DNA from: a virus
Lineage: Duplodnaviria > Heunggongvirae > Uroviricota > Caudoviricetes
Direction: 5' to 3' (one strand)
IMG/VR virus record: IMGVR_UViG_2718217709_000001
DNA length: 21,381 nt
The position numbers and the translations under genes were made by a program. The notes under the pieces were generated by a model that searched no databases, had not been told where the DNA came from, and saw only the letters and a list, made by a program, of their open reading frames with translations. Positions 889 to 17,330 of the stretch are shown piece by piece (within the stretch, counting starts at the first letter, position 1; each line of letters opens with the position of its first letter).

Positions 889-1521
889 GTGAGTATCTCA
901 CGTTCTCAGTGTGCTGGGCAAAAAAACATCGCAAAATCTGGAGCAGGCACGCAAAACAGAATTGAAGTTGCGGGGAAGAAAAATGCCGCTCTGTTTGAGT
1001 GGGCGGCATTTGTGAAGGCTGAAAAGTAAGAATTAGTGTTACGAGTCTGAATCTGTTTGTAGAGTGTTGGCTTCAATGCCGCATTGTGGCTGGTTTCTTT
1101 CTAATGCGATTTTTGATTATGTACACCCTTATGTACACGGTTTTTTCGGGTGCTTTGGTCAGAAGCCATTGCCTACATCCCTCAGGCTCGAGGTGTGTAA
1201 CCATGTTCAGGCTTGTTGTCCTGCGCGCGCGTATTGCTCGTGAAATTGCTGTACCCAATAGCGATGTCCGAAAAAACCTCCGTTCTCACATGAAACAGCC
1301 ATGTGCAACTGGTAACTGAACAGACTGGTAGACCGTTCGTTCAGTAAATACCTGATATTTCCGCCAACGAGAAATTGCGTTGGCTGGCAGAGTGCAAATT
1401 TGCACGATGACCTAACCCATTGATTCTTTCGAAAACCTAAATTTGAGGAAGCCGGATAACACCATTTTTATAGCTCCGATCCCTTCAAAGTGAGGGGTAA
1501 TTTGCCAAAACAGAGAGAGCA

Positions 1522-1809
1522 TTACTGTCTCTGGCAATCTTTATCGCGATAACGCCTGAAGTACCCTCTCGCTTCCTCATCCATACCAAGAGCCGAATGA
1601 GTCCGCTTAACTGCCTGTCTTAAATCTCCGAATCTGTCTGTAGTTGCTGGTTGGCGTGCCGCCTTACGGATACATTCAGAGCGTCTGTTTGCTGCATGTT
1701 CACGTTCTTTATCGCCATCTGCCAGCATCATGACTTCTGCCCATCGTGCGGCAGCTCTCCGGTATAGCCCTTTTGACTCCAGCTCTTCAGCTTTCCTGTC
1801 CCTTATCAT
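1522..1809 (-). CDS. PerC-family transcriptional activator-like protein (95 aa)
   Basis: Small basic protein whose N-terminus (RKAEELESKGLYRRAAARWAEVM) resembles PerC/Pch-type regulators as recalled; GAGG RBS 6-7 nt upstream of the ATG. No search run. Confidence 0.5.
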   Translation of the reverse strand: MIRDRKAEELESKGLYRRAAARWAEVMMLADGDKEREHAANRRSECIRKAARQPATTDRFGDLRQAVKRTHSALGMDEEARGYFRRYRDKDCQRQ

Positions 1810-1845
1810 TTCTGCCTCTCAGATTATATAGATAAGCAAAAAGGT

Positions 1846-1957
1846 GTTGGTTCAGTTGGTTCAATTTGTAAAGATCGTTGTTTTTATTGTGTTTTTTCAG
1901 AAATATTGAACCAACATCAACTCATTTTGAACCAACACAGTCCAGCTCTGAACCAAC
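1846..1957. repeat. Iteron/operator-like 9-mer array: GTTGGTTCA x2 in tandem (1846-1863) and TGAACCAAC x3 at exact 21-bp phasing (1907, 1928, 1949)
   Basis: Read directly from sequence; lies in the divergent region between the perC-like gene (-) and the 151-aa gene (+). Confidence 0.6.
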
Positions 1958-2010
1958 AACACAGCGATAGCTTTGTGATTGGTCCGTTATTTTCTGGTTG
2001 ATATTTGAGC

Positions 2011-2040
2011 GTATAACAGTGTTATACAGTGGTATACTGT
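2011..2040. repeat. Three tandem 10-bp units GTATAACAGT / GTTATACAGT / GGTATACTGT immediately upstream of the 151-aa ORF
   Basis: Direct reading; 10-bp periodicity places sites on one helix face; contains ACAGT...ACTGT inverted half-sites. Confidence 0.55.
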
Positions 2041-2059
2041 ATGGATATTACTCACTGAT

Positions 2060-2515
2060 ATGGTCTTTGCAATGAGCAAATCTAATCTGGTCGCGTTCCG
2101 CATCCCATCTGAATTGCAGGATGAGTTTAATCGGTCTGTTCTCGCTTCTGGAGGGGATAAAACCTCCTGGCTTGTTGATGCGATTCGCATGAAGCTGGGA
2201 CAGCCGGAAAAGTCTATTGATTCACGAATGCTTGGGCTGGTGGAGCGCATGGAAAAAGCCGCTGCGTCGCTTATTGCCGGAAAGCCGAACATCCCACCAA
2301 AGCCATATAACGAAACGGCAGTTATAAAGATCATTGCCGATACCATCCGACAGGGATTTGATAATGGGCGTGTGATAGCTGAACGGATCAATGAAGCAGG
2401 CTATCAAACAAAAGCTGGTAAAGCGTGGGATAAAGATATTTACAGCGCGTGGAAGCGTCAGGGAAGCAATGCTGAAAAGTTAAAAGCGGTGATTGATTGT
2501 AAGGTCAGCGTATAA
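2060..2515 (+). CDS. Hypothetical protein, N-terminal ribbon-helix-helix-like segment (putative DNA-binding regulator)
   Basis: 151-aa ORF; N-terminus (LVAFRIPSELQDEF...SWLVDAIR) has an RHH-like beta-strand/helix pattern; alternative start at 2072; no clear SD. Confidence 0.5.
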   Translation: MVFAMSKSNLVAFRIPSELQDEFNRSVLASGGDKTSWLVDAIRMKLGQPEKSIDSRMLGLVERMEKAAASLIAGKPNIPPKPYNETAVIKIIADTIRQGFDNGRVIAERINEAGYQTKAGKAWDKDIYSAWKRQGSNAEKLKAVIDCKVSV

Positions 2516-2795: not shown

Positions 2796-3056
2796 ATATC
2801 CAATGTGTATGCTGTCGATGCTACGCGCGCGTACTTGTCGCAAAATATCAGGCAAAGGCCAGATTCAGAACGTCGTGATAACCACCAGCACAACATGAGA
2901 GGTCATGTAACGCGATTTATCACACCAGATACATGTGATTGGTGTACCCGCATAAAACATCGTCATAGCGCGTCCTGTGCGCATATACGCCGATAATCAA
3001 CACATCACCACCACTCTGTCTTATGTAGAGAACAGTTTTATGGTGCTCCCCGCCAT

Positions 3057-3124
3057 CGCGTGCGTACTGGTCGGACACAGCTGCAAAAAATTTTGCAACT
3101 GATACACCTCGCGCGCGTACTGGT
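3057..3124. repeat. Two adjacent copies of a dispersed ~25-bp repeat (CGCGYGCGTACTGGTC...); related copies near 1223, 2824 and 3191
   Basis: Direct comparison of the sequence at 1223-1253, 2824-2848, 3057-3080, 3109-3136 and 3191-3203. Confidence 0.4.
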
Positions 3125-3249
3125 CACGAAATTGGTGTTTTGCTGTGGCAGTGATATCAGAAAAATCTTCCTGTTTCACATAAAGCGGATATGCGCGTAC
3201 TGTAACGGCCCCATCAACGGGGAGCGGATTTGAAATCCCGACCCAAGCT

Positions 3250-4020: not shown

Positions 4021-4077
4021 GAATGAACCGCCCCGGAAATCCTGGAGACTAAACTCCCTGAGAAAGAGGTAAACAGG

Positions 4078-4404
4078 ATGACTAAAAATACTCGTTTTTC
4101 CCCCGAAGTCCGTCAGCGGGCGATTCGTATGGTTCTGGAAAGTCAGGATGAATATGACTCACAGTGGGCGGCAATTTGTTCCATTGCCCCAAAGATTGGC
4201 TGTACGCCGGAGACTCTGCGTGTCTGGGTTCGCCAGCATGAGCGGGATACCGGGGGCGGTGATGGTGGGCTCACCAGCGCGGAACGTCAGCGTCTGAAAG
4301 AGCTGGAACGTGAAAATCGTGAACTGCGCCGCAGTAACGATATCCTTCGCCAGGCTTCCGCTTATTTTGCGAAGGCGGAGTTCGACCGCCTCTGGAAAAA
4401 ATGA
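4078..4404 (+). CDS. IS3-family transposase OrfA (HTH)
   Basis: 108-aa ORF ([22 protein letters not shown]...) recalled as IS629/IS1203-type OrfA; ends at the AAAAAA slippery run. Confidence 0.85.
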
Positions 4405-4818
4405 TGCCACTGCTGGATAAGCTGCGTGAGCAGTACGGGGTCGGACCGGTATGCAGCGAACTGCATATTGCCCCGTCAACGTATTACCATTGTCAGCAAC
4501 AGCGACATCATCCGGATAAACGCAGTGCCCGTGCGCAGCACGACGACTGGCTGAAGAGAGAGATACAGCGCGTATACGATGAAAATCATCAGGTGTACGG
4601 TGTGCGTAAAGTCTGGCGTCAGTTGTTACGGGAAGGAATCAGGGTGGCCAGATGTACAGTGGCACGTCTCATGGCGGTTATGGGACTTGCCGGTGTTCTC
4701 CGGGGTAAAAAGGTCCGTACGACCATCAGCCGGAAAGCCGTTGCCGCAGGCGACCGCGTAAACCGTCAGTTCGTGGCAGAACGACCTGACCAGCTGTGGG
4801 TGGCTGATTTTACTTACG
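4401..4818 (+). CDS. IS3-family transposase OrfB, 5' exon (interrupted by group II intron after ...[10 protein letters not shown])
   Basis: In-frame continuation is found at 7089; the intervening 2270 bp has group II intron boundaries. Confidence 0.75.
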
Positions 4819-5474
4819 GTGTGCCCGGAGTTCAGGGCGGGCATGGATGCTTAAATGAACCGCGAGTCTGTCTGGAATATTGAACCGGTAACTCACGATG
4901 AGAAACCCAACAATCCCACCGGGTGTGACGGTGGAGAACCTGAGCGGCAGTGACCTGCGGCATGCCCGCAGGGTGATGTAACCCGCTGACAACGGGGATT
5001 GAGGCGAGATCACTAAGCCGAGATGATCCTCAAGGTTAAGTACTGAAAGGCTGAAGAACATGAACCCGTTAATCCGCCTCTGTGGGTTGAAAACGTCACC
5101 ACGGCCTACGTGATCTGACAGGCCGTGCAGGAGGAACTGGCAGTAATACGTAAGCACTGCCGGTCGAAGGTGTTTTGACATGTATGCGAAACACCGGGGC
5201 AGCAGCGTCTATCACGCTTGCGTTGCTGACTTCTGCCAACTTGCGGCAAGCAAGGATAAAGAGTGCGACGGGCAGCCTCCTCAGTATGCCTGAGTCCAGG
5301 CAGGTAAACCGGGGAAGGTCAGCGACGGATGTTAAGGGGGCATGGCTCCGATGACGCGCTGGCTGGCGGAGCTTCCGTAGTAGTCCGCGATGGGGAAAGC
5401 CCATTACATGGCGAAGGGAAGCAGTTTGAATGTGTTTGCGACGTGAATTAACTGACCTAACGAGGTGAAGACCT

Positions 5475-6998
5475 TTGATAATCAGCGAAATGCAACGCAA
5501 GCTTGCCACATGGGCAGTCACCGATCCGTCCCTACGGATTCAACGGCTGCTGCGTCTGATAACACAACCAGAATGGCTGGCTGAAGCGGCGCGGATCACG
5601 CTTTCATCAAAGGGGGCCCATACCCCCGGCGTTGATGGCGTGAACAAAACAATGCTACAGGCCAGACTGGCTGTTGAGCTGCAAATCCTCAGGGATGAAT
5701 TACTCTCAGGCCACTACCAGCCCTTGCCCGCCAGACGGGTTTACATCCCTAAAAGCAACGGCAAACTGCGACCACTGGGTATCCCCGCGTTGCGGGATCG
5801 TATTGTTCAGCGGGCCATGCTGATGGCGATGGAGCCGATATGGGAGAGTGATTTTCATACACTCTCATATGGCTTCCGGCCTGAGCGCAGTGTCCACCAC
5901 GCTATCCGCACGGTGAAATTACAGCTCACAGACTGTGGTGAAACCCGGGGACGCTGGGTGATTGAAGGCGACCTGTCCAGTTACTTCGACACCGTACATC
6001 ATCGACTGCTGATGAAGGCTGTACGCCGCAGGATCAGTGACGCACGTTTCATGACTCTGCTGTGGAAAACCATCAAGGCGGGACATATCGATGTCGGTCT
6101 CTTTCGGGCGGCCAGTGAAGGTGTGCCACAGGGCGGTGTTATATCGCCGCTATTATCGAACATCATGCTGAATGAGTTCGATCAATACCTGCATGAGCGC
6201 TACCTGAGCGGGAAAGCCAGAAAAGATCGGTGGTACTGGAATAACAGTATCCAACGGGGCCGAAGTACGGCGGTCAGAGAAAACTGGCAGTGGAAACCCG
6301 CGGTGGCGTACTGCCGCTATGCCGATGATTTTGTCCTCATCGTCAAAGGCACCAAAGCACAGGCGGAAGCCATCAGGGAGGAGTGTCGGGGTGTGCTCGA
6401 AGGCAGTCTGAAACTCAGGCTGAACATGGATAAGACTAAAATCACCCATGTTAATGACGGCTTTATCTTTCTGGGGCACAGGATCATTCGCAAACGCAGT
6501 CGTTATGGCGAGATGCGAGTGGTCTCAACGATCCCGCAGGAGAAAGCCAGAAACTTCGCCGCATCGCTGACAGCACTGTTATCAGGCAACTACAGTGAAA
6601 GCAAAGTCGATATGGCTGAACAACTCAACCGAAAACTGAAAGGCTGGGCCATGTTCTATCAGTTCGTTGATTTTAAGGCCAAAGTCTTCAGTTATATCGA
6701 CCGTGTCGTGTTCTGGAAGCTGGCTCACTGGCTGGCCCGCAAATACCGTACAGGTATCGCTTCCCTGATGAGGTGGTGGTGTAAATCACCGAAACCGGGT
6801 CAGAGCAAAACGTGGGTTTTATTTGGTAAAACCAATCACGGCAAGCTCAGCGGCGAAATACTGTACCGGTTGGTGGGGCAAGGCAAGAAGCTGTTCCGCT
6901 GGCGGCTACCCGAAGGTAATCCCTATCTGAGGACGGAGACCAGAAACACGTATACATCGCGCTTTACAGAAGTGGCAATGGCGTTCGCCAGCATTTAA
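5475..6998 (+). CDS. Group II intron-encoded reverse transcriptase/maturase (no endonuclease domain evident)
   Basis: 507-aa ORF with RT motifs (GIPALRDRIVQRA, YADDFV) and a C-terminal maturase (X) region; no HNH-like Cys/His cluster at the C-terminus. Confidence 0.9.
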   Translation: MIISEMQRKLATWAVTDPSLRIQRLLRLITQPEWLAEAARITLSSKGAHTPGVDGVNKTMLQARLAVELQILRDELLSGHYQPLPARRVYIPKSNGKLRPLGIPALRDRIVQRAMLMAMEPIWESDFHTLSYGFRPERSVHHAIRTVKLQLTDCGETRGRWVIEGDLSSYFDTVHHRLLMKAVRRRISDARFMTLLWKTIKAGHIDVGLFRAASEGVPQGGVISPLLSNIMLNEFDQYLHERYLSGKARKDRWYWNNSIQRGRSTAVRENWQWKPAVAYCRYADDFVLIVKGTKAQAEAIREECRGVLEGSLKLRLNMDKTKITHVNDGFIFLGHRIIRKRSRYGEMRVVSTIPQEKARNFAASLTALLSGNYSESKVDMAEQLNRKLKGWAMFYQFVDFKAKVFSYIDRVVFWKLAHWLARKYRTGIASLMRWWCKSPKPGQSKTWVLFGKTNHGKLSGEILYRLVGQGKKLFRWRLPEGNPYLRTETRNTYTSRFTEVAMAFASI

Positions 6999-7003
6999 AT
7001 GGA

Positions 7004-7037
7004 GAGCCGGATGCGCTGAAAGGTGCACGTCCGGTTC
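7004..7037 (+). ncRNA. Group II intron domain V (catalytic hairpin)
   Basis: GAGCCGGATGCGCTGAAAGGTGCACGTCCGGTTC, about 50 nt before the intron 3' end. Confidence 0.7.
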
Positions 7038-7060
7038 GGGGAGGAGAGGCAGGGAAATAG

Positions 7061-7561
<501 letters not shown>

Positions 7562-7603
7562 GTTCACAGATAAAACACTCTCCAGGAAACCCGGGGCGGT
7601 TCA

Positions 7604-9395
7604 GAATGTGTTTTGCTGCTAGTTCGTATGGAGCTGTTACCCGATTAAATCTGTTTACAAACTCATTCAGCTTACCAGTAGATATTTCATGCGCTTTAGC
7701 ATTTTTTATTGCTCTGGCAACTTTGTATACATCATATAGTCCGCTCATTGTTTCTTTTGGCAAATGTTCAGCCAAAGTCTTTAGCTGTCCACTGTGTTGC
7801 AAGTTTTGCCACCAATCTGCGAAGCCAGATGGATTAAAGTCGGCCCCACGCTTCCCAGAGGAAAGCATATCTCTTAATGCTGTTCCTACTAGCTCCCTTC
7901 GCAATGTTCTTGATGGAGTATTTTGCATAATCTCACGAAACCCTCTCGCATCACCTTTTGCCATAGATTGAAGAGAATTCGTTACTTTATACGCTATATC
8001 CCCATTAAGTGTTTTCCCGCGAAGATTTACCATTTGCCTTTCTAAGTTTTTTCTCATAGCTACAAGGCGTTGTGCGACTTCGAAATCTCGCAAGTATCCA
8101 GTATTGGATAAGACAGATTTTTGGTCTTCAGCTAAAGCTCCATATAGTCTTGATAGCGCTTCTTTATCAGCATCTTTGTATGGCCCCTGCTTTTTATTTA
8201 GGGCATCACCAACTAAACGCCTTTGCCTGTTTAAATTTGCATACGTTAGGATGCTATCTGGGCCGGGGTTTATTGCTGTAAAAACTCGCTTTTCTATTGG
8301 GTCAAGATTATCCCACCCTCCTAAATCATCAGCGATTTTTTCCAGCATAGTGCTTGTGTTATTTGCTTCGACTTTTGTTCTTGGTGATAGAGCGGAATCA
8401 ACACGTTTATATAACTGATCACTACGGTTTTTTAGTGCTTCCATTCTACTATTTATCTGATAAATATATTTTTCGCTCATAGCTAACGCATCTGGCGCAC
8501 CAGCAACATCATCGATTATCTTGCCAGCACTAGAGGCTAATTCGCTTATTGCTTTATCTTCTTGAGCTTTTAACGCTGATCCTGTCCGTGACTTTAGGGC
8601 TTGCTCTACAGCTTGGTATTGCTCATTTCCTGATAAATGAGAAGGAAGAACTGAATCAACATGAAGCCTATTTGCAGCCTCAACAATTTCTTTCTGAGGT
8701 TTTAGATCTAGCCCTTCAAGCGAAGAGGCAAGATTTGGGTTGCCTTGTGCAGATAACTTACGAATTTTCTCTTCGGCAGGAGTAATCCCCTCAATATCTG
8801 GAATCGAAGAAACATTCTTCTTGGTTAATTTCCCAGCTATTTTATTAATTGCAGGGCCAGCAAGTTCGGCTACAGGGCCAGCCACAGCGCCAATAGCAGC
8901 GCCGGAAGCAACATCGCTATTTGTTCCATTGGCTACAATAGCCCCTTCTCCAGCACCAAGCCCTGCGGCGGCAGCCAGTCTTGCCGCCCCTTTGGGAACC
9001 TGAGAAATAATCCCACCACCACTAACAAATGGCGCTGCTTGTCCAACGAACTCACCAACATCTTGTGCGGTTGATGGTTTTGCCGCTAACTTCTGCTGTA
9101 GAGACTGAATTGCGGCTTGCTCTTCTGGTGTCATATCCTGAAACAGGCCAACACCTTTACCAACATCCATCAATCCACTGAGAACGCCATACATAAAACG
9201 GTCGAAACCGTTAGCATTATTAACAACATTTTCCTGTCTGGAATTTTCCTCTGGTGAAACCAAAGGTGATTGCTGCTGTTCTGGTTGGGCATCAAGCACA
9301 AAACCATCAGGAAGCTGTGAACTATCAGGAAACTGTGAGTTATCAGGTTGTTCATCGAGCACAAAACCTTCCGGTAAGATTACATTTGCTGCCAT
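7604..9395 (-). pseudogene. 5' part (597 codons) of the IS-disrupted 705-aa cargo gene: duplicated LPxGFVLDxQP N-terminal motif, Gly/Ala-rich segment, long helical region
   Basis: ORF 7368..9395 (-); residues after codon 597 are read through the IS right end and are not native; AGGA RBS upstream of the ATG at 9395. Confidence 0.7.
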
Positions 9396-10735
9396 TTTCC
9401 GTTCCTGTAAATGATTTTCTGACCAGTTTTAGGGTTGGTTGCCGTTGCGCCTTCTGATATTCCTCCGGTTGCCGCTTTTGCCTGTCCAGTGCCAGCCTGT
9501 GATGTAGGCTGCCCGGAAACATCGTCAAATAGCTTCGCTTTCCTTCTTTCAAGGCTTTTTCTTAGCCCCTGAGGAATAGTTTCTCCATATGTATCGAGAT
9601 ACTCGTCAACCTGCTGGTTAAACTGCTGCCCCATAGCATTGGCGTTGATTTTTGCGGCGTTAACAATGTTATCCTTTGCCTCCTGCGACAGGCCGTTTCC
9701 AGCATTAAGCTGGTCTATGTATCCTTTGATTTGTCCCCATATGCCATCAGACCGCATTACCTGAACCTGTTCGCCTTCACGAACGACTGACTGCGGGTCA
9801 AGAGATTTCATGTAGTTGAAGATAATCCCAAGTTGGGCAGCGCCAGTATTTACCTTGCTAAGGGCTTGCAGAGAGTTTGCCGCCGCTCTGACAGAGTTAT
9901 AATTTTTGCCAAAATTGGTAATGTCAGAATTTAATCCCTTAATTAAGTCTGCTGACGGCTTACCTTTTTGCCCCAGCTCCATTAGCTTCAATCCCATCTC
10001 ATCTGAGTGAATTTGTGCTCGCTGAGCCCTGTCTAGTTGAGCGTTCTGGATATTTGCCCATCCTCTCGCGTTCTCCATGTCAGCCTGACGCATACTTTCA
10101 TCCAGTCGCCCTTGCTCAAGTCGACGACCTTCCATTTGATCTTTGATATCGAAATACTTCTCATGACCGAGAGAAAACAGCGCCAGATTACCTGCGAAAT
10201 GCTGGAAGCCCTGCGGGTCATTAACCTGCATTTCAGCAATAGTTTCTGGAGGGATACCTAAACGACGCATCTCCTGCTCATTATCCATCATGAACCTGCC
10301 AAATGCGCCCTGACCAAGCGATGAGGCTACCTGTGCTTTGAGCGCCAGATTGCCATAATCATCCCTTTGAGCATCATCGACATAACTCATCCCTTTACGG
10401 ACTTCCTCAAACTCTTCTGGGAATGCTGTAATAAGATTACGCATCTGCTCCCTGTCACCGGACGCATAAGCATCTGCATAACCTTTCTGGAATGCCGCTT
10501 TACGTTCCTGCTGTTGCTGCTGCTTATAAATGTCAGCAACTCCAGCCAGACCACGAAGACCTGTCAGAGCAACGTTATTTGCACCTGAGCGAGCCAGTTC
10601 ATTGTTTTCGCGGATCAGACCAAGCGTTGCGTTAATGTCGCTTGCCTTTGGCGCATTCTCATTTTGCGCACCGATGCCAGCCAGAAAACCACCAGAATTA
10701 ATACCCTGTTGCCACGTAGCCATAAATTTACCCAC
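9380..10735 (-). CDS. Hypothetical Gln/Asn/Ala-rich, predicted coiled-coil protein (about 450 aa; likely ATG start at 10723)
   Basis: Long ORF with no Walker or nuclease motif seen; its end overlaps the start of the next gene by 16 nt; the track start at 10735 is GTG, ATG at 10723 follows the upstream stop by 4 nt. Confidence 0.65.
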   Translation of the reverse strand: MGKFMATWQQGINSGGFLAGIGAQNENAPKASDINATLGLIRENNELARSGANNVALTGLRGLAGVADIYKQQQQQERKAAFQKGYADAYASGDREQMRNLITAFPEEFEEVRKGMSYVDDAQRDDYGNLALKAQVASSLGQGAFGRFMMDNEQEMRRLGIPPETIAEMQVNDPQGFQHFAGNLALFSLGHEKYFDIKDQMEGRRLEQGRLDESMRQADMENARGWANIQNAQLDRAQRAQIHSDEMGLKLMELGQKGKPSADLIKGLNSDITNFGKNYNSVRAAANSLQALSKVNTGAAQLGIIFNYMKSLDPQSVVREGEQVQVMRSDGIWGQIKGYIDQLNAGNGLSQEAKDNIVNAAKINANAMGQQFNQQVDEYLDTYGETIPQGLRKSLERRKAKLFDDVSGQPTSQAGTGQAKAATGGISEGATATNPKTGQKIIYRNGKWQQM

Positions 10736-10901: not shown

Positions 10902-10935
10902 AACGCCCCCCTTAGAACTGTATAAAACAACAGTC

Positions 10936-11030: not shown

Positions 11031-11394
11031 CGTTCTGTATGTCAGGTTTTGACAGTTTTTTTATGGACTCTAAAAACTATATTTATGGAGTCGCATTACT
11101 CTTCACGGCAGGCGCTTTCCAGTTCTGCCCTTGCTTCTGGCTCCATTGGTAATTTGATTCGCGATCAGCTATGCGGATGGTTTGCTGAACAGGCATAACA
11201 ACATCTCAGAGGCTATTTTTTGAACTACGAAAATTTCGTAGTGCTCACCTTCAAAAACGTCACGCCCTTGTACACTGGATTTTACAAAAGTCTCGTAAAA
11301 CTCTTTGCTGTTCTGGGCTATGTGCCAAACCGCAGCGAATACCTCCGTCTGCCAGATGAGCAAAACATACCTTATAAAGAAAATCGCTGTTTTT

Positions 11395-11499
11395 GCTGTA
11401 CCACCTGTACCACCATGTCACAAACCCTTGTGTGGCGCGGCCTGCAGGTGGTACAGGTGGGTAAAAATGACCTCTCCCCACCTGTACAGACCTGTACCA
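11395..11499. repeat. Iteron-like cluster A: five copies of (A)CCTGTAC(C/A) / GGTGGTACAGGTGG in both orientations
   Basis: Direct reading: 11396-11405, 11405-11414, 11447-11460 (inverted), 11480-11489, 11490-11499. Confidence 0.5.
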
Positions 11500-11504
11500 T
11501 TTAT

Positions 11505-12242
11505 TTAATTTTTACCCATAGCAGCACATAATCCCTTTTTTGAAATATTGAAAAATGCGTTCATTCTTCCCGCTGGCTTAACCTTGTAGCCGCTTGCCAC
11601 CATCGCCGCAATAAATGCTCCGTTGGGGATATAGTGCGGGTGATCACTGTGCTGGTGGTTTATCTGGTTATATCGCTCCACTTCATGCTTCAACGTGTCA
11701 GATGTGGGGTTATCCTGCGGGAAGCTCTCAATCTGGGCATTACTCATCCCGTTGTCTCTGATCCATCTCAGGCAGCTTTTCGCCGATACGATAAATGACG
11801 GGTTATCAAGCGGGTTTTCCCAGTCCGCATTCCGGTTGTGGAGCGCCAGTCCGTCAAGGTTAAATTGTGGGTATTCAGCGGTAATTACTGTCACTGCGTG
11901 GCGGATTTCAGTCTCGTCACAACATGGCTCATCTCCCACACCAGCAGGGTAATAATCTGAACCACCGGGACTGATACAGCGTTTACCACTGAAAGGCCAT
12001 TGCTTCGCCATTTCGGGTGTTGAGTGATTACCGTCGCTCCGTTCGCGCTGTGCCTCTGTCCACTGGCTGGCATATTCAGTAAATGAAACTCTTTGCCCCT
12101 GGCGCATCCAGTGCGCAATCATAATTAAAGTGCGTTCCAGACTTTGGATGTCGCCAGCATTCCCGCACTGTGTAGCGAAACTTTTTAATTCTTCGCGCTC
12201 CGTTCTGGTCATTCCCTGCAGTATGCAATAGTTATTGTTCAT
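11505..12242 (-). CDS. Hypothetical protein (245 aa)
   Basis: GAGAGGT RBS 6 nt upstream of the ATG; overlaps the end of orf76 by 11 nt; followed by the terminator at 10998-11030. Confidence 0.6.
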   Translation of the reverse strand: MNNNYCILQGMTRTEREELKSFATQCGNAGDIQSLERTLIMIAHWMRQGQRVSFTEYASQWTEAQRERSDGNHSTPEMAKQWPFSGKRCISPGGSDYYPAGVGDEPCCDETEIRHAVTVITAEYPQFNLDGLALHNRNADWENPLDNPSFIVSAKSCLRWIRDNGMSNAQIESFPQDNPTSDTLKHEVERYNQINHQHSDHPHYIPNGAFIAAMVASGYKVKPAGRMNAFFNISKKGLCAAMGKN

Positions 12243-12462
12243 GTTTTACCTCTCTGATTTCTGCTGCCATATCTGTTGGCTCTATACAGCCGTCCCGACT
12301 TGCCACGCAGGGAATAATGATTTCAACGGTATCGCCGTCAATACACATTTCAACATTCGCCCATGCCGCAATGGGTAGCCAGTCTGAACGCCCCTCAAAC
12401 CGTAGCTGCCAGCCAGAGGAAGAAGCTAACTGGCGCACTTTGTAAAATGGTGTGCTCATCAT
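12232..12462 (-). CDS. Hypothetical small protein (76 aa)
   Basis: GAGAGGG RBS upstream of tandem ATGs; first gene after the primase and iteron cluster B. Confidence 0.5.
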   Translation of the reverse strand: MMSTPFYKVRQLASSSGWQLRFEGRSDWLPIAAWANVEMCIDGDTVEIIIPCVASRDGCIEPTDMAAEIREVKHEQ

Positions 12463-12506
12463 TGGTTGTTCCCTCTCAGCCAGCCAGAAGAAATGCGTTT
12501 GTTAAT

Positions 12507-12609
12507 GGTATAGGTGGTACAGGTCTGGTATAGGTAAGATATTGACCTGTACCACTATAACGCATTGTTTTTAATGCTGAATTAGCAAAGTGGTATAGGT
12601 GGTACAGGT
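12507..12609. repeat. Iteron-like cluster B: GGTATAGGTGGTACAGGT x2 (12507-12524, 12592-12609), GGTATAGGT (12527-12535) and inverted ACCTGTACCAC (12545-12555); candidate origin
   Basis: Direct reading; located immediately 3' of the primase/helicase gene; same core motif as cluster A. Confidence 0.55.
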
Positions 12610-12638
12610 AAAAACGATCTTCTTGTAAAAAGACTATA

Positions 12639-14990
12639 TTAAAAAACATCATAACCCCCCATACCGATCAGACGGGCAAACGCAGCCTGTAGAACTCCGA
12701 CCTCTGGTAGTTCGTAGAACACGCCATTCCCTCGGTCTGGTCTTCCATGCTTCACCAGCCCCATTTGTGCAAGTGATTTACCCAGTAGTGATCTGGCAGC
12801 TGGTTCTTTAAGCTTTTCCCCACGCTCAAGCGACCACGCTACAAATCGACTAACCATATCCTTTGCAAACAAACGGACTTCGCCATTAAACGGAGGTTCA
12901 TTGATTAGCTCGCCATAAAGAAACAATTCAACGCCAGACAGCCCCAGCAAGATTTCTTCACGTAAGGCATCGGTCTGTGGCGCTCGTTGAGGGTCAAAAC
13001 CTGAGAGATCCACCCCTTTAAGATGCCAAAGCAACTTTGCGGCACCGCCATCATTAAGCCAACTGTACAGCCGATCAAAATACTCCCGGCTCTGTGCTTT
13101 TTCAGGAGATGGCTCAAGCACGAGATAGCGGCGCTCTCTTATCCCTGCCTGTAATACCTGTGTGCTGTTACTGGCAAATATCAACCGGGCAAAATTCGGC
13201 ATTGGTTCAGCATCAATTCCCTTGCGCTCAAGGTTAAACGTCGGTTCGCTAATAATCGCTTTAAGTCTGTCAGCTTCAGACGGCTTGTGGATCGTCACTT
13301 CGTCAGCAAATACCAGTAGCTTGTTAGCAAGTATTGAATTGAAGCGCCCTGAAATATGTCCCGCCCCGTTAATGTGGGCGGCGTACTGCCCCAGTATTTG
13401 CAGCAGCGGTTTAACCGTTGTGCCTTTCCCTGTGCCCGGGACAGATTTCATCACGATTGCCACGGACGGTTTTTCATCAGGCTTTTGGATAATGTGCGCC
13501 ATCCACTGGATAAGATATTGGTATGCCTCTTCATTACCGGCACAGACAACCTGCAACAGGTGATTAAGGTATACCGTGCAATCTCCTTCAATTGGTTCCA
13601 GTGCCAGCCCCTCATACAGATTAAAAACATCGTCAGGGCATTTGTCTGGTACTGGATAAAATCCTACGCCTCCTGGCTTGTAGTTCTTCCCACTCCATGA
13701 CAGCCACGCCGATCCCGCCAGCTTTCTGGCGACTCTCGGTTTATGATGAAAATAATGCTGAAATTGTGATAAATCCTCGAAAACGTGCGATACACCGCCG
13801 GTTTGAGAAGGCTTTAGCGACACCACCTTGTGTTTCCCGCCGATGGTGACATGCGTAAACGTCCGGTTGATTTCTTCGAGGACAGCAATTTCATCATCGC
13901 TTAACACCTCGCCAGAACTGATCTCATTCAGCGCCCCGACTGACTGTTTGTGATTTTTCACCTGCGCCCCTTTCCCCCGTGGCTGGTACATCGAATCTTT
14001 AAATGCTGCTGTGGCTGCCGCCAGCCCGTGTTGTTGGTGATAGTCGTTCCAGTCGGCTTTATAGTCAGTCGGTGGCAGAGACACCCAGCCAGCTACGGAA
14101 ATAGCGGCCCTCTCTGCGGCATCTTTCCCCGTGTTGATCCCTCCACTTTCGGAGTTTCCTTGCTGGTGATCGTTATCTGCGGCAATGATGATTTGTGCCT
14201 GTGGATATGTTCTGCGCATGACTTCCGCTACTGGCAACAGGTTGCCAGCGTCGATTGCTGCCACTGTCATTGCGTCAGGGCGAATTAAATGGCACGACAG
14301 GGCGGTAGCCACCCCCTCAGCAATTATGATGCTGTGAGGTCGTTTCTGTGCGTTTATGGCGTGATATGCCCCTCGCTTTGCTGAACCTGTCAGGAGTCTT
14401 TTTTCACCATGTGAGGTAATAGTCTGTGCTGCTGTGACTGCGCCGGATTTATCCACCAGCGCCAGCAACAGAGATCCATCGGGCAACACAGGGAATGTAA
14501 AATCACCTACCCCTTTCGCAACCAGATAATCAGATTTGCCGTTTACAGCCTTTCTGCGCATGTCATCAAACTGACGGGAAAACGTATCCCGTCTTTGTTG
14601 TTCGTCCTTCTCTGCCCTTTTCAGGCGCTCCTGTTCGCGTCGCTGGCGCTCGGTTTCCAGTTGTTCCCGTTTCTGGCTGGTGGCTTCTGGTGTTTCCGTT
14701 GTCCGGTAATCAATACCCAGAACATCAGCGGCAAGAAGCGCCGCCTCTGTTGTGTCGCAGTTATTTACGCGTTTAATTAAATCCAGCCCATCACCAGCGC
14801 CGCACTGATTACAGATGAAGCTACCGCGCCCGTTGTCATCGAACCGGAATCGATCTTTGCCCCCACATGCAGGGCAGGGAGCATGACGGCGCGGAGAGTC
14901 AGGGACATTTATGTTCAGGCAGTCCAGCACATGAGGCCAGTTGTTTTCAGACGCACTGATAACCTGACGGATAAGATCAATGTTTCGCAT
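12639..14990 (-). CDS. P4 alpha-type primase/helicase (N-terminal zinc ribbon, Toprim-like middle, C-terminal P-loop NTPase)
   Basis: 783-aa ORF; CPACGG...CNQCG zinc-binding motif near the N-terminus; Walker A VPGTGKGT in the C-terminal half. Confidence 0.85.
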   Translation of the reverse strand: MRNIDLIRQVISASENNWPHVLDCLNINVPDSPRRHAPCPACGGKDRFRFDDNGRGSFICNQCGAGDGLDLIKRVNNCDTTEAALLAADVLGIDYRTTETPEATSQKREQLETERQRREQERLKRAEKDEQQRRDTFSRQFDDMRRKAVNGKSDYLVAKGVGDFTFPVLPDGSLLLALVDKSGAVTAAQTITSHGEKRLLTGSAKRGAYHAINAQKRPHSIIIAEGVATALSCHLIRPDAMTVAAIDAGNLLPVAEVMRRTYPQAQIIIAADNDHQQGNSESGGINTGKDAAERAAISVAGWVSLPPTDYKADWNDYHQQHGLAAATAAFKDSMYQPRGKGAQVKNHKQSVGALNEISSGEVLSDDEIAVLEEINRTFTHVTIGGKHKVVSLKPSQTGGVSHVFEDLSQFQHYFHHKPRVARKLAGSAWLSWSGKNYKPGGVGFYPVPDKCPDDVFNLYEGLALEPIEGDCTVYLNHLLQVVCAGNEEAYQYLIQWMAHIIQKPDEKPSVAIVMKSVPGTGKGTTVKPLLQILGQYAAHINGAGHISGRFNSILANKLLVFADEVTIHKPSEADRLKAIISEPTFNLERKGIDAEPMPNFARLIFASNSTQVLQAGIRERRYLVLEPSPEKAQSREYFDRLYSWLNDGGAAKLLWHLKGVDLSGFDPQRAPQTDALREEILLGLSGVELFLYGELINEPPFNGEVRLFAKDMVSRFVAWSLERGEKLKEPAARSLLGKSLAQMGLVKHGRPDRGNGVFYELPEVGVLQAAFARLIGMGGYDVF

Positions 14991-16481: not shown

Positions 16482-17330
16482 GTGCCACCTCCATGCGGAT
16501 ACGACCAGCAAAAAAGCAGACGTGATCGCGCACCAGAGAACGGCGAGCATCGCGTTCAGACTCGGCAGCAATATGATGAATTTTGGCGGTAATTGTCGGG
16601 CAATCGCGGCGAACTGCGGCGATAATCCAGATAAATTGCGTTTTTTGGGTAGGGGTAGTAGCCAGCATGTGGCAGCCTCCTTCAGATAGCAGGTTACGCT
16701 ACCACCGGAAACGCCAATTTCGCTGGTGGTAGCCCAGACAGGGTTGGCGTAACCGGCTCTGAAGGATACCGGCGCTTCCGAAGAAGCCCCCGCCTGAGCC
16801 ACCATTGATTGACAAAGGCGCTGGATTATACACCAACGCCCAAAAAATGGGTGAGTCAGACCTACGACATAAAAAAAGACGCTTGGCGCGTCATATGTCG
16901 CCTTCAGAATTTTTAGGACGCCAATCCCGGCACCCGTTTTATGAGGTGCCTTATAACCATAAACCGTGTTGCCGCATAACGGCAAGCTCTTTTTTATGGA
17001 CTCCGAAAACTCACTATTGGAAGAACCAGAAGCACAGTACATCGCGCTCATTTCGTTAACGTCACGCGCGTGGACGAAGGTTTTTGTGGAGTCACTACAC
17101 GAGCAGAGAAAGCCATCTACGACCAGAAATTCTCTGGCATAGCCGCTGACCTTCTCAACGCTAACACCATCGACCGTAATTTCTGACATAGTTAAGGCAT
17201 CCGCTCCTACCACCAGCAAATGATAAACTTTGCTTGTATCTGCTGTATTAATGTCTGACTTTGCTGTCATATTGCTGGATTTTGGCGACATACCAGCCAG
17301 TGAAAATATCTTCTTCTGGGCGGTTAGCAT
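16263..17330 (-). CDS. Long open frame (355 aa); 5' part looks like a genuine gene, 3' extent doubtful
   Basis: GGAGG RBS and ATG overlapping the upstream stop by 4 nt; the frame stays open to 16263 but overlaps two well-formed small genes with poor codon usage there. Confidence 0.35.
16474..16668 (-). CDS. Hypothetical small protein (64 aa, MLATTPTQ...)
   Basis: Strong RBS AAGGAGG 7 nt upstream; all eight Arg codons are CGC/CGT and Leu mostly CTG, whereas the alternative long frame uses CTA/TTA/AGG/ATA here. Confidence 0.45.
   Translation of the reverse strand: MLATTPTQKTQFIWIIAAVRRDCPTITAKIHHIAAESERDARRSLVRDHVCFFAGRIRMEVAHD

What the first reader, a model, noticed from the sequence alone, without database searches (positions are those of the whole stretch)
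1846..2040. Dense phased repeats in the divergent perC-like / RHH-like control region
Seen: GTTGGTTCA x2 in tandem (1846-1863); its complement TGAACCAAC x3 at exactly 21-bp intervals (1907, 1928, 1949); and three 10-bp tandem units ending in ACAGT/ACTGT (2011-2040) abutting the 151-aa ORF. Helical phasing suggests cooperative protein binding on one DNA face. The ACAG/CTGT half-sites echo the LexA box at 869-888 but in the wrong arrangement, so a different DNA-binding protein is likely, perhaps the adjacent RHH-like protein.
Basis: seen in the sequence. Interest (0 to 1): 0.5.

Follow-up and report, generated by a model that had tools for sequence, protein, structure and literature searches.

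The report
Orphan replication-origin repeats in phage satellite
The phased TGAACCAAC repeats are most likely a spare copy of a replication-origin cassette of an E. coli phage satellite (PICI-type island), left without its matching initiator after that half of the replication gene was swapped, while the neighbouring 10-bp units are a separate promoter/operator of the 147-aa gene.

Summary
Observation confirmed. TGAACCAAC occurs five times exactly (1846, 1855 on the minus strand; 1907, 1928, 1949 on the plus strand) and nowhere else in 21 kb.

It is probably not an operator for the adjacent 147/151-aa protein or PerC. The window holds a PICI-type phage satellite inserted at yicC/dinD. Sister islands lacking the 147-aa gene, or carrying a different integrase, keep the array: opposed sets of invariant 9-mers around an exactly 43-bp AT-rich spacer. 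They also carry a second, inverted copy just 3' of a TOPRIM+DUF927 primase-helicase gene, which is the known PICI/SaPI origin layout.

In IMG/VR, 71 of 85 such clusters lie 27-89 bp past a DUF927-type gene. In this window the helicase half of that gene and its origin (11305-13968) have been replaced by a DUF5906-type module with different iterons (TGGTAYAGG; 12506-12609 and 11396-11499). The perC-side cassette is therefore an orphan.

The 2011-2040 units are a separate module: a perfect 17-bp palindrome plus an extended -10, conserved upstream of homologues of the 147-aa gene.

Binding and origin function are inferred, not tested. This is a new variant of a known kind, of moderate interest.

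The parts
1846..1863 (-). Left iteron set: two tandem 9-mers (TGAACCAAC on the minus strand; 3 copies in many sister islands).
   Evidence: Copy number of 2 or 3 in sister islands.
1864..1906 (.). 43-bp AT-rich spacer (79% A+T), the presumed melting region. Its length is exactly 43 bp in every cassette examined.
1907..1957 (+). Right iteron set: three TGAACCAAC(A) at 21-bp spacing. The spacers between them are free to vary.
1810..1845 (-). perC 5' region, identical in all perC-side copies, with TATAAT at 1828->1823 on the minus strand. The first iteron lies where a -35 would be.
   Evidence: Read from the sequence and alignments A1 and A3. The promoter scan found no full sigma-70 match.
1522..1809 (-). 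perC-family gene. A recombination breakpoint lies at about codon 24, and the upstream part is shared with islands whose PerC is only 53% identical.
   Evidence: Pfam PF06069, E = 1.3e-32.
2011..2027 (.). Perfect 17-bp palindrome GTATAACAnTGTTATAC, the candidate operator of the 147-aa gene.
   Evidence: Conserved upstream of homologues at 69-73% aa identity with unrelated flanks.
2030..2038 (+). TGGTATACT, an extended -10-like element (TGGTATAAT in L043).
   Evidence: and direct reading of the sequence. Not found by the consensus promoter scan.
2072..2515 (+). 147-aa ORF (151 aa if started at 2060). The N-terminus resembles an RHH in pattern only. The C-terminal domain (residues 80-143) is confidently predicted as helical and has no known relatives.
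12639..14990 (-). Resident pri-rep gene (783 aa): Zn-ribbon and TOPRIM N-terminal half, DUF5906 (D5-type) C-terminal half.
11305..13968 (-). Swapped replicon-specificity module: the C-terminal half of pri-rep, its iteron clusters, and the 76-aa and 245-aa genes. It replaces the DUF927 half plus the TGAACCAAC origin of sister islands.
12506..12609 (.). Iteron cluster A of the resident replicon (TGGTAYAGG, 6 copies in both orientations), 30 bp 3' of the pri-rep stop codon.
11396..11499 (.). Iteron cluster B of the resident replicon (CTGTACCAC tandem pair and inverted copies), 1.1 kb from cluster A.
1046..1055 (.). attL core TCTGAATCTG, shared with attR at the yicC 3' end. This is the left end of the island.
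   Evidence: The published att for a yicC-dinD PICI overlaps it.
1118..1138 (+). Two TATGTACAC repeats, with four more next to int in L001 and L003. These are the likely integrase arm-type sites and are a different motif from TGAACCAAC.

Best explanation
The array at 1846-1957 is a copy of the replication-origin cassette used by Gram-negative PICI-type phage satellites whose initiator is a TOPRIM+DUF927 primase-helicase (Pri-Rep). The cassette consists of two opposed sets of 9-bp iterons (TGAACCAAC) around a fixed 43-bp AT-rich spacer.

Inferred mechanism, by analogy with SaPI Rep, Cch and P4 alpha: the C-terminal origin-binding part of the helicase binds the iterons, helicase oligomers load on the two sets, and the AT-rich spacer melts.

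Sister islands carry two copies. One lies immediately 3' of pri-rep. The other is inverted, at the far end of the island upstream of perC. This two-site design resembles P4 ori/crr.

In this window the helicase half of pri-rep and its adjacent origin have been exchanged for a DUF5906/D5-type module that brings its own iterons (TGGTAYAGG). The perC-side TGAACCAAC cassette therefore has no cognate initiator in cis. It is most likely a recent orphan with no replication role in this island, unless a DUF927-type satellite is also present in the cell.

The 2011-2040 units are a separate module: the palindromic operator and extended -10 promoter of the 147-aa gene.

What is shown: the anatomy, the linkage to the DUF927 gene, the module swap and the conservation pattern. 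What is inferred: binding by the DUF927 protein, origin activity and orphan status.
For: 1. In sister islands the same ~130-bp cassette lies just 3' of the DUF927 pri-rep stop codon, inverted relative to the perC-side copy. In alignment A1 every 9-mer, in fact the 10-mer TGAACCAACA, is invariant while the inter-iteron spacers differ. The central spacer is exactly 43 bp in all 19 cassettes examined, including two islands (L110, L133) whose spacer sequence has strongly diverged.

2. An unbiased IMG/VR scan with the tandem 18-mer found 85 clusters of at least 4 copies. Of these, 71 lie 27-89 bp (median 45) past the 3' end of a DUF927-type C-terminal half (63-100% aa identity). Seven lie next to perC, none next to a DUF5906-type gene, and 7 are other cases.

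3. The window's Pri-Rep is 85% identical to the DUF927 proteins over residues 1-345 and unrelated after that. The swapped DNA is window 11305-13968 against L003 5457-7388, with 94-97% identical flanks. Different iterons follow the window's gene. The same TGGTAYAGG-type iterons follow DUF5906-type genes that are only 51% identical (L191, L253).

4. EcCICFT073 has a third initiator type, and its experimentally functional origin has a third iteron (CTGTCTACC) in the same layout of 9-bp tandem copies in both orientations.

5. Literature. [quoted passage not shown] DUF927 is the family of the Cch and SaPIbov1 Rep self-loading helicases, and SaPI Rep recognises iterons directly downstream of its gene through its C-terminal domain (PMC7581432).

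6. P4 has crr immediately 3' of alpha and ori 4.7 kb away. Both hold 8-bp type-1 iterons in pairs spaced 9-11 bp, in both orientations.

7. The array is independent of the 147-aa gene, of integrase type and integration site, and of the att arm repeats.
Against: There is no experiment. No TGAACCAAC cassette has been tested for binding or for origin activity, so the binder is inferred from linkage and family knowledge.

The perC-side copy is always joined to an identical perC promoter region and the first ~23 codons of perC. It could therefore have a transcriptional role, alone or in addition.

Iteron-to-initiator mapping is not strictly one to one. L236 has CCTGTACCA tandem iterons behind an unrelated DUF927-like protein. 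Cross-recognition by the resident DUF5906 protein is therefore not excluded.

EcCICFT073 replicates from a single cluster and has no second site, so a second cassette is not a general requirement.

Orphan cassettes keep intact iterons in DUF5906-type islands. This may reflect recency (the module is at least 99% identical across most genomes) or a retained function.

Evidence for concerted evolution between the two copies within one island is weak.
Confidence: 0.7

Rival explanations
1. Operator array of a transcription factor. An island regulator such as the 147-aa RHH-like protein, PerC, or the AlpA-like, Ash or AntA proteins binds the phased 9-mers cooperatively and controls the divergent perC and rightward promoters.
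For: The tandem iterons overlap the position where a -35 would sit for a perfect TATAAT upstream of perC. The 36 bp between the cassette and perC, and the first ~23 codons of perC, are identical across islands whose PerC is otherwise 53% identical. The 11/21-bp spacing fits binding on one helical face. The regulatory genes are shared by all sister islands.
Against: The array persists without the 147-aa gene. The same cassette lies 3' of DUF927 genes in 71 of 85 clusters, usually with no perC in the retrieved DNA, abutting the end of a gene rather than a promoter. The repeat type next to pri-rep changes with the helicase half of Pri-Rep while the regulatory genes stay about 94-99% identical. 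A TSS about 7 nt after that TATAAT would fall inside the perC Shine-Dalgarno sequence (read). The sigma-70 scan finds no promoter.
Confidence: 0.12
2. The cassette is still a working auxiliary replication site (crr-like) in this island. The resident DUF5906-type Pri-Rep cross-recognises TGAACCAAC, or the site recruits a host factor, so it is needed in cis for efficient replication or copy control.
For: P4 needs two iteron regions (annotation; requirement from my knowledge of the P4 literature). Two dispersed clusters recur in DUF927-type islands and in one DUF5906-type element (L253, second cluster 8.6 kb away at the island end). Iterons are intact in DUF5906-type islands. The same iteron can go with unrelated Rep proteins.
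Against: The resident module already has two cognate clusters of a different sequence. TGAACCAAC and TGGTAYAGG share no core. The C-terminal halves of the two Pri-Rep types show no similarity. None of the 85 TGAACCAAC clusters lies next to a DUF5906-type gene.
Confidence: 0.1
3. Integrase arm-type or excisionase sites that belong to attP.
For: In the circular form perC lies next to attP and int. Arm-type sites are typically short repeats in both orientations.
Against: A different repeat, TATGTACAC, flanks the core: two copies 63-92 bp from it and four next to int. The TGAACCAAC array is 790-900 bp from the core, with perC in between. The same array occurs in islands with a different integrase at tRNA-Thr, and far from any att site next to pri-rep.
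Confidence: 0.02

Closest known systems
Replication origins of Gram-negative PICIs (EcCICFT073 and relatives; Fillol-Salom et al. 2018, PMC6092414) and SaPI origins
   Same: Two opposed sets of short iterons flank an AT-rich region. Iterons are 9-mers in 9-bp tandem arrays. Sister copies lie immediately 3' of the pri-rep gene. The island type matches: int, AlpA-like HTH, pri-rep, late genes, perC, and a yicC-dinD att site that is listed for reference PICIs.
   Different: This copy is not next to rep. It is 10.7 kb away, upstream of perC at the island end. Its cognate DUF927 initiator is absent from the island. The iteron sequence differs from EcCICFT073 (CTGTCTACC), which has a single origin cluster.
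Satellite phage P4 ori/crr and alpha protein
   Same: The primase domain is homologous (33% identity over 335 aa). One iteron region lies immediately 3' of the initiator gene and a second lies kilobases away in a divergent promoter region. Short iterons occur in tandem pairs spaced 9-11 bp, in both orientations. The island also has a P4 CI-like C4/isrK RNA.
   Different: The iteron sequence (TGTTCACC in P4) and the helicase and origin-binding halves differ. P4 crr is a 120-bp direct duplication, whereas here there are two inverted single cassettes. A requirement for both sites is not known here.
Autoregulated operators of ribbon-helix-helix repressors (Arc, Mnt, CopG type)
   Same: This applies to 2011-2040 only. 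A short perfect palindrome overlaps the promoter of a small gene whose N-terminus has a strand-helix-helix pattern. Operator and gene move together as a module.
   Different: The RHH fold is not demonstrated: no Pfam or PDB hit and a low-confidence N-terminus in the model. The protein also has an extra 100-residue C-terminal domain of unknown function.

Membership tests
PICI/SaPI-type iteron origin | [quoted passage not shown] | tested here: met
   There are 2 and 3 exact 9-mers in opposed orientation around a 43-bp spacer that is 79% A+T. The spacer length is fixed in all 19 cassettes examined.
PICI/SaPI-type iteron origin | Located immediately 3' of the replication initiator gene | tested here: not met
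   The window copy is upstream of perC, 10.7 kb from pri-rep. Sister copies of the same cassette do meet it: 71 of 85 clusters lie 27-89 bp after a DUF927-type gene.
PICI/SaPI-type iteron origin | Cognate initiator encoded by the same element | tested here: not met
   The window's Pri-Rep has a DUF5906 C-terminal half unrelated to the DUF927 half. No DUF927-type sequence is found in the window.
PICI/SaPI-type iteron origin | Initiator binds the iterons and the segment supports replication | not testable with these tools
   This needs EMSA or footprinting and plasmid replication assays. It has been shown only for EcCICFT073, which has a different iteron (PMC6092414).
P4 ori/crr system | Type-1 iterons TGTTCACC bound by the alpha protein | tested here: not met
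   The iteron here is TGAACCAAC. P4 annotation and sequence are in L010. Only the primase domain is homologous to alpha.
P4 ori/crr system | Two separated iteron regions on one replicon, one of them directly 3' of the initiator gene | tested here: inconclusive
   This is met in the DUF927-type sister islands. For TGAACCAAC the window has only the distal copy. The resident TGGTAYAGG iterons do form two clusters. Whether both sites are functionally required is unknown.
LexA (SOS) box | CTGT-N8-ACAG palindrome | tested here: not met
   None lies in 1846-2060. The only sites in the window are 871-886 and 10918-10933.
Tyrosine-integrase arm-type sites | Repeats flank the att core within about 200 bp and go with the integrase type | tested here: not met
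   The core is at 1046-1055. TATGTACAC repeats fill that role. The TGAACCAAC array also occurs with a different integrase and att site.
RHH repressor with its operator (2011-2040 and the 147-aa ORF) | Ribbon-helix-helix fold of the protein | tested here: inconclusive
   No Pfam hit even at E <= 10. No PDB sequence or fold match. In the AF2 model, residues 1-12 are coil and helices span 13-25 and 30-41, at pLDDT 48-69. One source labels a homologue 'Arc-like'. There is a weak PHROG hit at residues 2-45.
RHH repressor with its operator (2011-2040 and the 147-aa ORF) | Symmetric or repeated operator overlapping the gene's own promoter and conserved together with the gene | tested here: met
   A perfect 17-bp palindrome and TGGTATACT lie 34-61 bp upstream of the ATG. 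They are conserved in 4 homologous loci with unrelated flanking DNA.

The most novel reading that the evidence does not exclude
The perC-side cassette may be more than a relic. Orphan or second origin cassettes could be a way for satellites to interact. They might let the island be replicated in trans by a co-resident DUF927-type satellite. Alternatively they might titrate or handcuff that rival's initiator, giving inter-satellite incompatibility. They might also couple perC (a virulence regulator) expression to satellite replication. About 2-3% of complete E. coli genomes carry the cassette without a DUF927 initiator, and many genomes carry several such islands.
Probability: 0.15. Interest if true: 0.6.

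Novelty: new variant of a known kind. Interest (0 to 1): 0.4.

Why it matters
It reassigns a 'regulatory repeat' region to the replication system of a phage satellite. It shows that replicon specificity in these islands (the helicase/origin-binding half of Pri-Rep plus its iterons) is exchanged as one 2-3 kb module, with one breakpoint inside the gene. It also reveals a P4-like two-site origin design in a common family of E. coli PICI-type islands that carry perC, a family of virulence-gene activators. If the distal cassette is functional, it would bear on satellite copy control, on competition between co-resident satellites, and on the link between perC expression and satellite induction. If it is a relic, it is a clean marker of recent modular recombination.

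Tried and rejected
- **Integrase arm sites:** rejected. A different repeat (TATGTACAC) flanks the core, and the array occurs with another integrase.
- **LexA:** rejected.
- **Binding by the 147-aa protein to TGAACCAAC:** rejected, because the two are independent of each other.
- **Sigma-70 promoter scan of 1400-2700:** found nothing, so the promoter statements rest on reading the sequence.
- **IMG/VR scan with the TGGTAYAGG tandem:** mostly noise from unrelated environmental contigs. Only L191, L202, L236 and L253 were informative.
- **Literature search for the 9-mer itself:** found only unrelated primers and sequences. No paper was found on PICIs carrying ejection-protein genes.
- **147-aa protein:** Pfam, PDB sequence search and Foldseek gave no significant match. 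The monomer model is poor at the N-terminus.
- **Concerted evolution of the two cassettes within one island:** only a few shared variants, such as GTTGGTTCG at both sites in L009, so it is treated as suggestive only.
- **Conservation of the extreme C-terminus of DUF927 proteins:** as high as the ATPase core (0.73-0.90 identity). This is consistent with the model but not discriminating.

Full report
**1. Observation**

The repeats are real. GTTGGTTCA occurs twice in tandem at 1846-1863. Its complement TGAACCAAC occurs at 1907, 1928 and 1949, exactly 21 bp apart. Five exact copies are found against 0.16 expected in shuffles, and there is no other exact copy in the 21 kb. A 43-bp spacer that is 79% A+T separates the two sets, and GC falls to 22.5% there.

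The 10-bp units at 2011-2040 are also present. Their real anatomy is a perfect 17-bp palindrome GTATAACAGTGTTATAC (2011-2027) followed by TGGTATACT (2030-2038). There is no LexA box in the region.

**2. Context**

The window is E. coli chromosome. It holds dinD (1-837) and then a ~20-kb integrative island inserted at the 3' end of yicC.
- The attL core is TCTGAATCTG at 1046-1055.
- The island encodes an integrase, an AlpA-like HTH protein, AntA/B and Ash-family proteins, and a Zn-ribbon/TOPRIM primase fused to a DUF5906 helicase half.
- It also encodes P22-like DNA-ejection proteins and perC, and a P4 CI-like C4/isrK RNA.
- This gene set, and the yicC-dinD site, match the Gram-negative PICI satellites of Fillol-Salom et al. 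2018 (PMC6092414).
- A 12,152-bp circular 'plasmid' record (L003) is a sister island in excised form.

**3. What the array is not**

*Not integrase arm sites.* A different repeat, TATGTACAC, flanks the core, with two copies at 1118-1138 and four next to int. The TGAACCAAC array is 790-900 bp from the core. The same array occurs in islands with a different integrase at tRNA-Thr.

*Not tied to the 147/151-aa ORF.* Islands L004-L009 lack that gene. They keep two or three tandem GTTGGTTCA and three TGAACCAAC at 21-bp spacing, while the sequences between the repeats have diverged.

**4. What it is**

In sister islands whose primase is fused to a DUF927 helicase half, a second, inverted copy of the same ~130-bp cassette lies immediately after the stop codon of that gene.
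- Alignment A1 of five perC-side and four pri-side copies shows every 9-mer invariant (in fact TGAACCAACA) and the inter-iteron spacers free.
- The central spacer is exactly 43 bp in all 19 cassettes examined, even where its sequence is unrecognisable (L110, L133).
- The spaced set has intervals of 11 and 21 bp at the pri site and 21 and 21 bp at the perC site. The other set is a 9-bp tandem array.

An IMG/VR scan with the tandem 18-mer gave 85 clusters of at least four copies.
- 71 lie 27-89 bp (median 45) beyond the 3' end of a DUF927-type C-terminal half (63-100% aa identity).
- Seven lie next to perC.
- None lies next to a DUF5906-type gene.
- The rest are contig-edge cases or simple arrays.

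**5. Match to the known origin design**

[quoted passage not shown] I examined that origin. It has CTGTCTACC 9-mers in 9-bp tandem arrays, in both orientations, behind a D5_N/DUF5906/Pox_D5 primase.

PMC7581432 states that DUF927 is the family of the Cch and SaPIbov1 Rep self-loading initiator helicases. It also states that SaPI Rep recognises iterons directly downstream of its gene through its C-terminal domain.

P4 shows the two-site version. Its crr lies directly 3' of alpha and its ori lies 4.7 kb away in a divergent promoter region, both with short iterons in pairs spaced 9-11 bp. The primase domain here is 33% identical to that of P4 alpha.

**6. The swap**

The window's Pri-Rep is 85% identical to the DUF927 proteins over residues 1-345 and unrelated beyond that.
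- At the DNA level, window 11305-13968 replaces L003 5457-7388, between flanks that are 94-97% identical.
- The replaced segment is the helicase/origin-binding half of the gene plus its origin.
- The incoming module carries TGGTAYAGG iterons in two clusters, at 12506-12609 (30 bp after the stop codon) and 11396-11499.
- The same iterons follow DUF5906-type genes that are only 51% identical (L191, L253).

So the iteron type next to the gene tracks the helicase half of the initiator, while the island's regulatory genes stay nearly identical. The perC-side TGAACCAAC cassette, 9 kb away, was not exchanged. It is therefore an orphan in this island.

**7. Prevalence in complete E. coli genomes**

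- 541 of 5,426 genomes carry the cassette.
- About 366 have the pri-proximal copy, usually with two places per genome.
- About 167 have only the perC-type copy.
- 139 genomes carry the DUF5906 module, mostly at 99% identity or more.
- Orphan copies keep intact iterons: 6 of 6 in L135 and L136, 4 of 6 in L137. Given the recency of this lineage, that does not prove selection.

**8. Mechanism (inferred)**

The DUF927 Pri-Rep binds the 9-mers through its C-terminal part. It loads on the two opposed sets and melts the 43-bp AT-rich spacer. The second cassette may act like P4 crr or in copy control. In this window, with no cognate initiator, the cassette probably does nothing for replication unless a DUF927-type island is also present.

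A transcriptional side role cannot be excluded. The tandem iterons abut a conserved perC 5' region with a perfect TATAAT. The segment from the cassette through perC codon ~23 is identical in islands whose PerC is otherwise 53% identical.

**9. The 2011-2040 units**

These form a separate module. The palindrome and TGGTATACT (TGGTATAAT in L043) are conserved upstream of homologues of the 147-aa gene at 69-73% aa identity, in four loci whose flanking DNA is unrelated and lacks TGAACCAAC. The simplest reading is an autoregulated promoter and operator.

The RHH assignment is only a pattern-level guess. There is no Pfam, PDB or fold match. The N-terminus of the model has low confidence, and the C-terminal domain is a confidently predicted helical domain of unknown kind.

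**10. Caveats**

- Nothing here has been tested biochemically.
- L236 shows the CCTGTACCA iteron behind an unrelated DUF927-like protein, so iteron and protein are not strictly one to one.
- EcCICFT073 has one cluster only, so two sites are not a general requirement.
- The evidence for gene conversion between the two copies is thin.

**11. Verdict**

The proposed binder and role do not hold for the TGAACCAAC array and remain plausible only for the 10-bp units.

The array belongs to a known kind, the PICI/SaPI/P4-type iteron origin, in an undescribed configuration. I found no paper that describes a distal inverted second copy, here left without its initiator after a replicon-module swap. Interest is moderate.

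Noticed in passing
window 12506-12609 and 11396-11499: Two clusters of TGGTAYAGG / CTGTACCAC iterons lie 1.1 kb apart and flank the 76-aa and 245-aa genes just 3' of pri-rep. They are the likely working origin (and a second site) of the resident replicon.
   Followed up: partly
window 13956-13969 (pri-rep codon ~345): A recombination breakpoint lies inside the primase-helicase gene. The N-terminal primase half is shared at 85% aa identity with DUF927-type genes, and the C-terminal half is unrelated.
   Followed up: yes
window 1046-1055 and 1118-1138; L001 37200-37260: The attL core TCTGAATCTG overlaps the yicC 3' end. TATGTACAC repeats lie on both arms (2 and 4 copies) and are the likely integrase arm-type sites.
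   Followed up: partly
L003 (NZ_CP148430.1, 12,152 bp, circular): A record deposited as a plasmid is a sister island in circular form: int, attP, perC, both TGAACCAAC cassettes and a DUF927 pri-rep. This suggests excision and episomal maintenance, or an assembly of the excised circle.
   Followed up: partly
window 16722-16809 and 16872-16949 (minus strand): Rfam C4 antisense RNA and isrK hits lie inside the Ash-family ORF. This is the P4 CI/seqA-like RNA immunity signature.
   Followed up: no
window 10918-10933: A second LexA-box-like site, CTGTATAAAACAACAG, lies upstream of the small gene and ejection-protein gene cluster. The core TATAAAACAAC recurs in L003 at 5073 and 5563 (read; the full box was not checked there). 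It is reminiscent of the LexA-controlled SaPI operon I.
   Followed up: no
window 4026-7603: A 3.6-kb insertion relative to ACN001 (L135). It is an IS3-family element (ALIL frameshift pseudoknot at 4359-4475) carrying a group II intron (RT ORF 5475-6998, intron domain 7002-7088), and it truncates the large gene at 7368-9395.
   Followed up: no
window 1224-1252, 2824-2852, 3056-3072, 3110-3138: Four copies of a CGCGCGCGTAYTG...GAAATTG-type repeat lie in intergenic DNA on both sides of the perC / 147-aa region. Their function is unknown.
   Followed up: no
window 1738-1809 (perC codons 1-24): A mosaic boundary lies inside perC. The cassette, the perC leader and the first ~23 codons are 100% identical to islands whose PerC then diverges to 53% identity overall.
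   Followed up: partly
window 7368-10735 and sister islands: The island carries P22-type DNA-ejection protein genes (annotated 'phage DNA ejection protein' and 'injection protein', with a lytic transglycosylase in sister islands) but no capsid or terminase genes. This hints at a P22-like helper phage.
   Followed up: no
L236 4320-4425: A high-GC element with a TOPRIM and DUF927-like Rep has CCTGTACCA 9-bp tandem iterons about 45 bp after the stop codon. The iteron core is the same as in the window's DUF5906 module, but the proteins show no similarity.
   Followed up: partly
window 2050-2060: The motif CACTGATATGG, between the -10-like element and the start codon of the 147-aa gene, is conserved in most homologous loci but not in L043. 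Its role is unknown.
   Followed up: no
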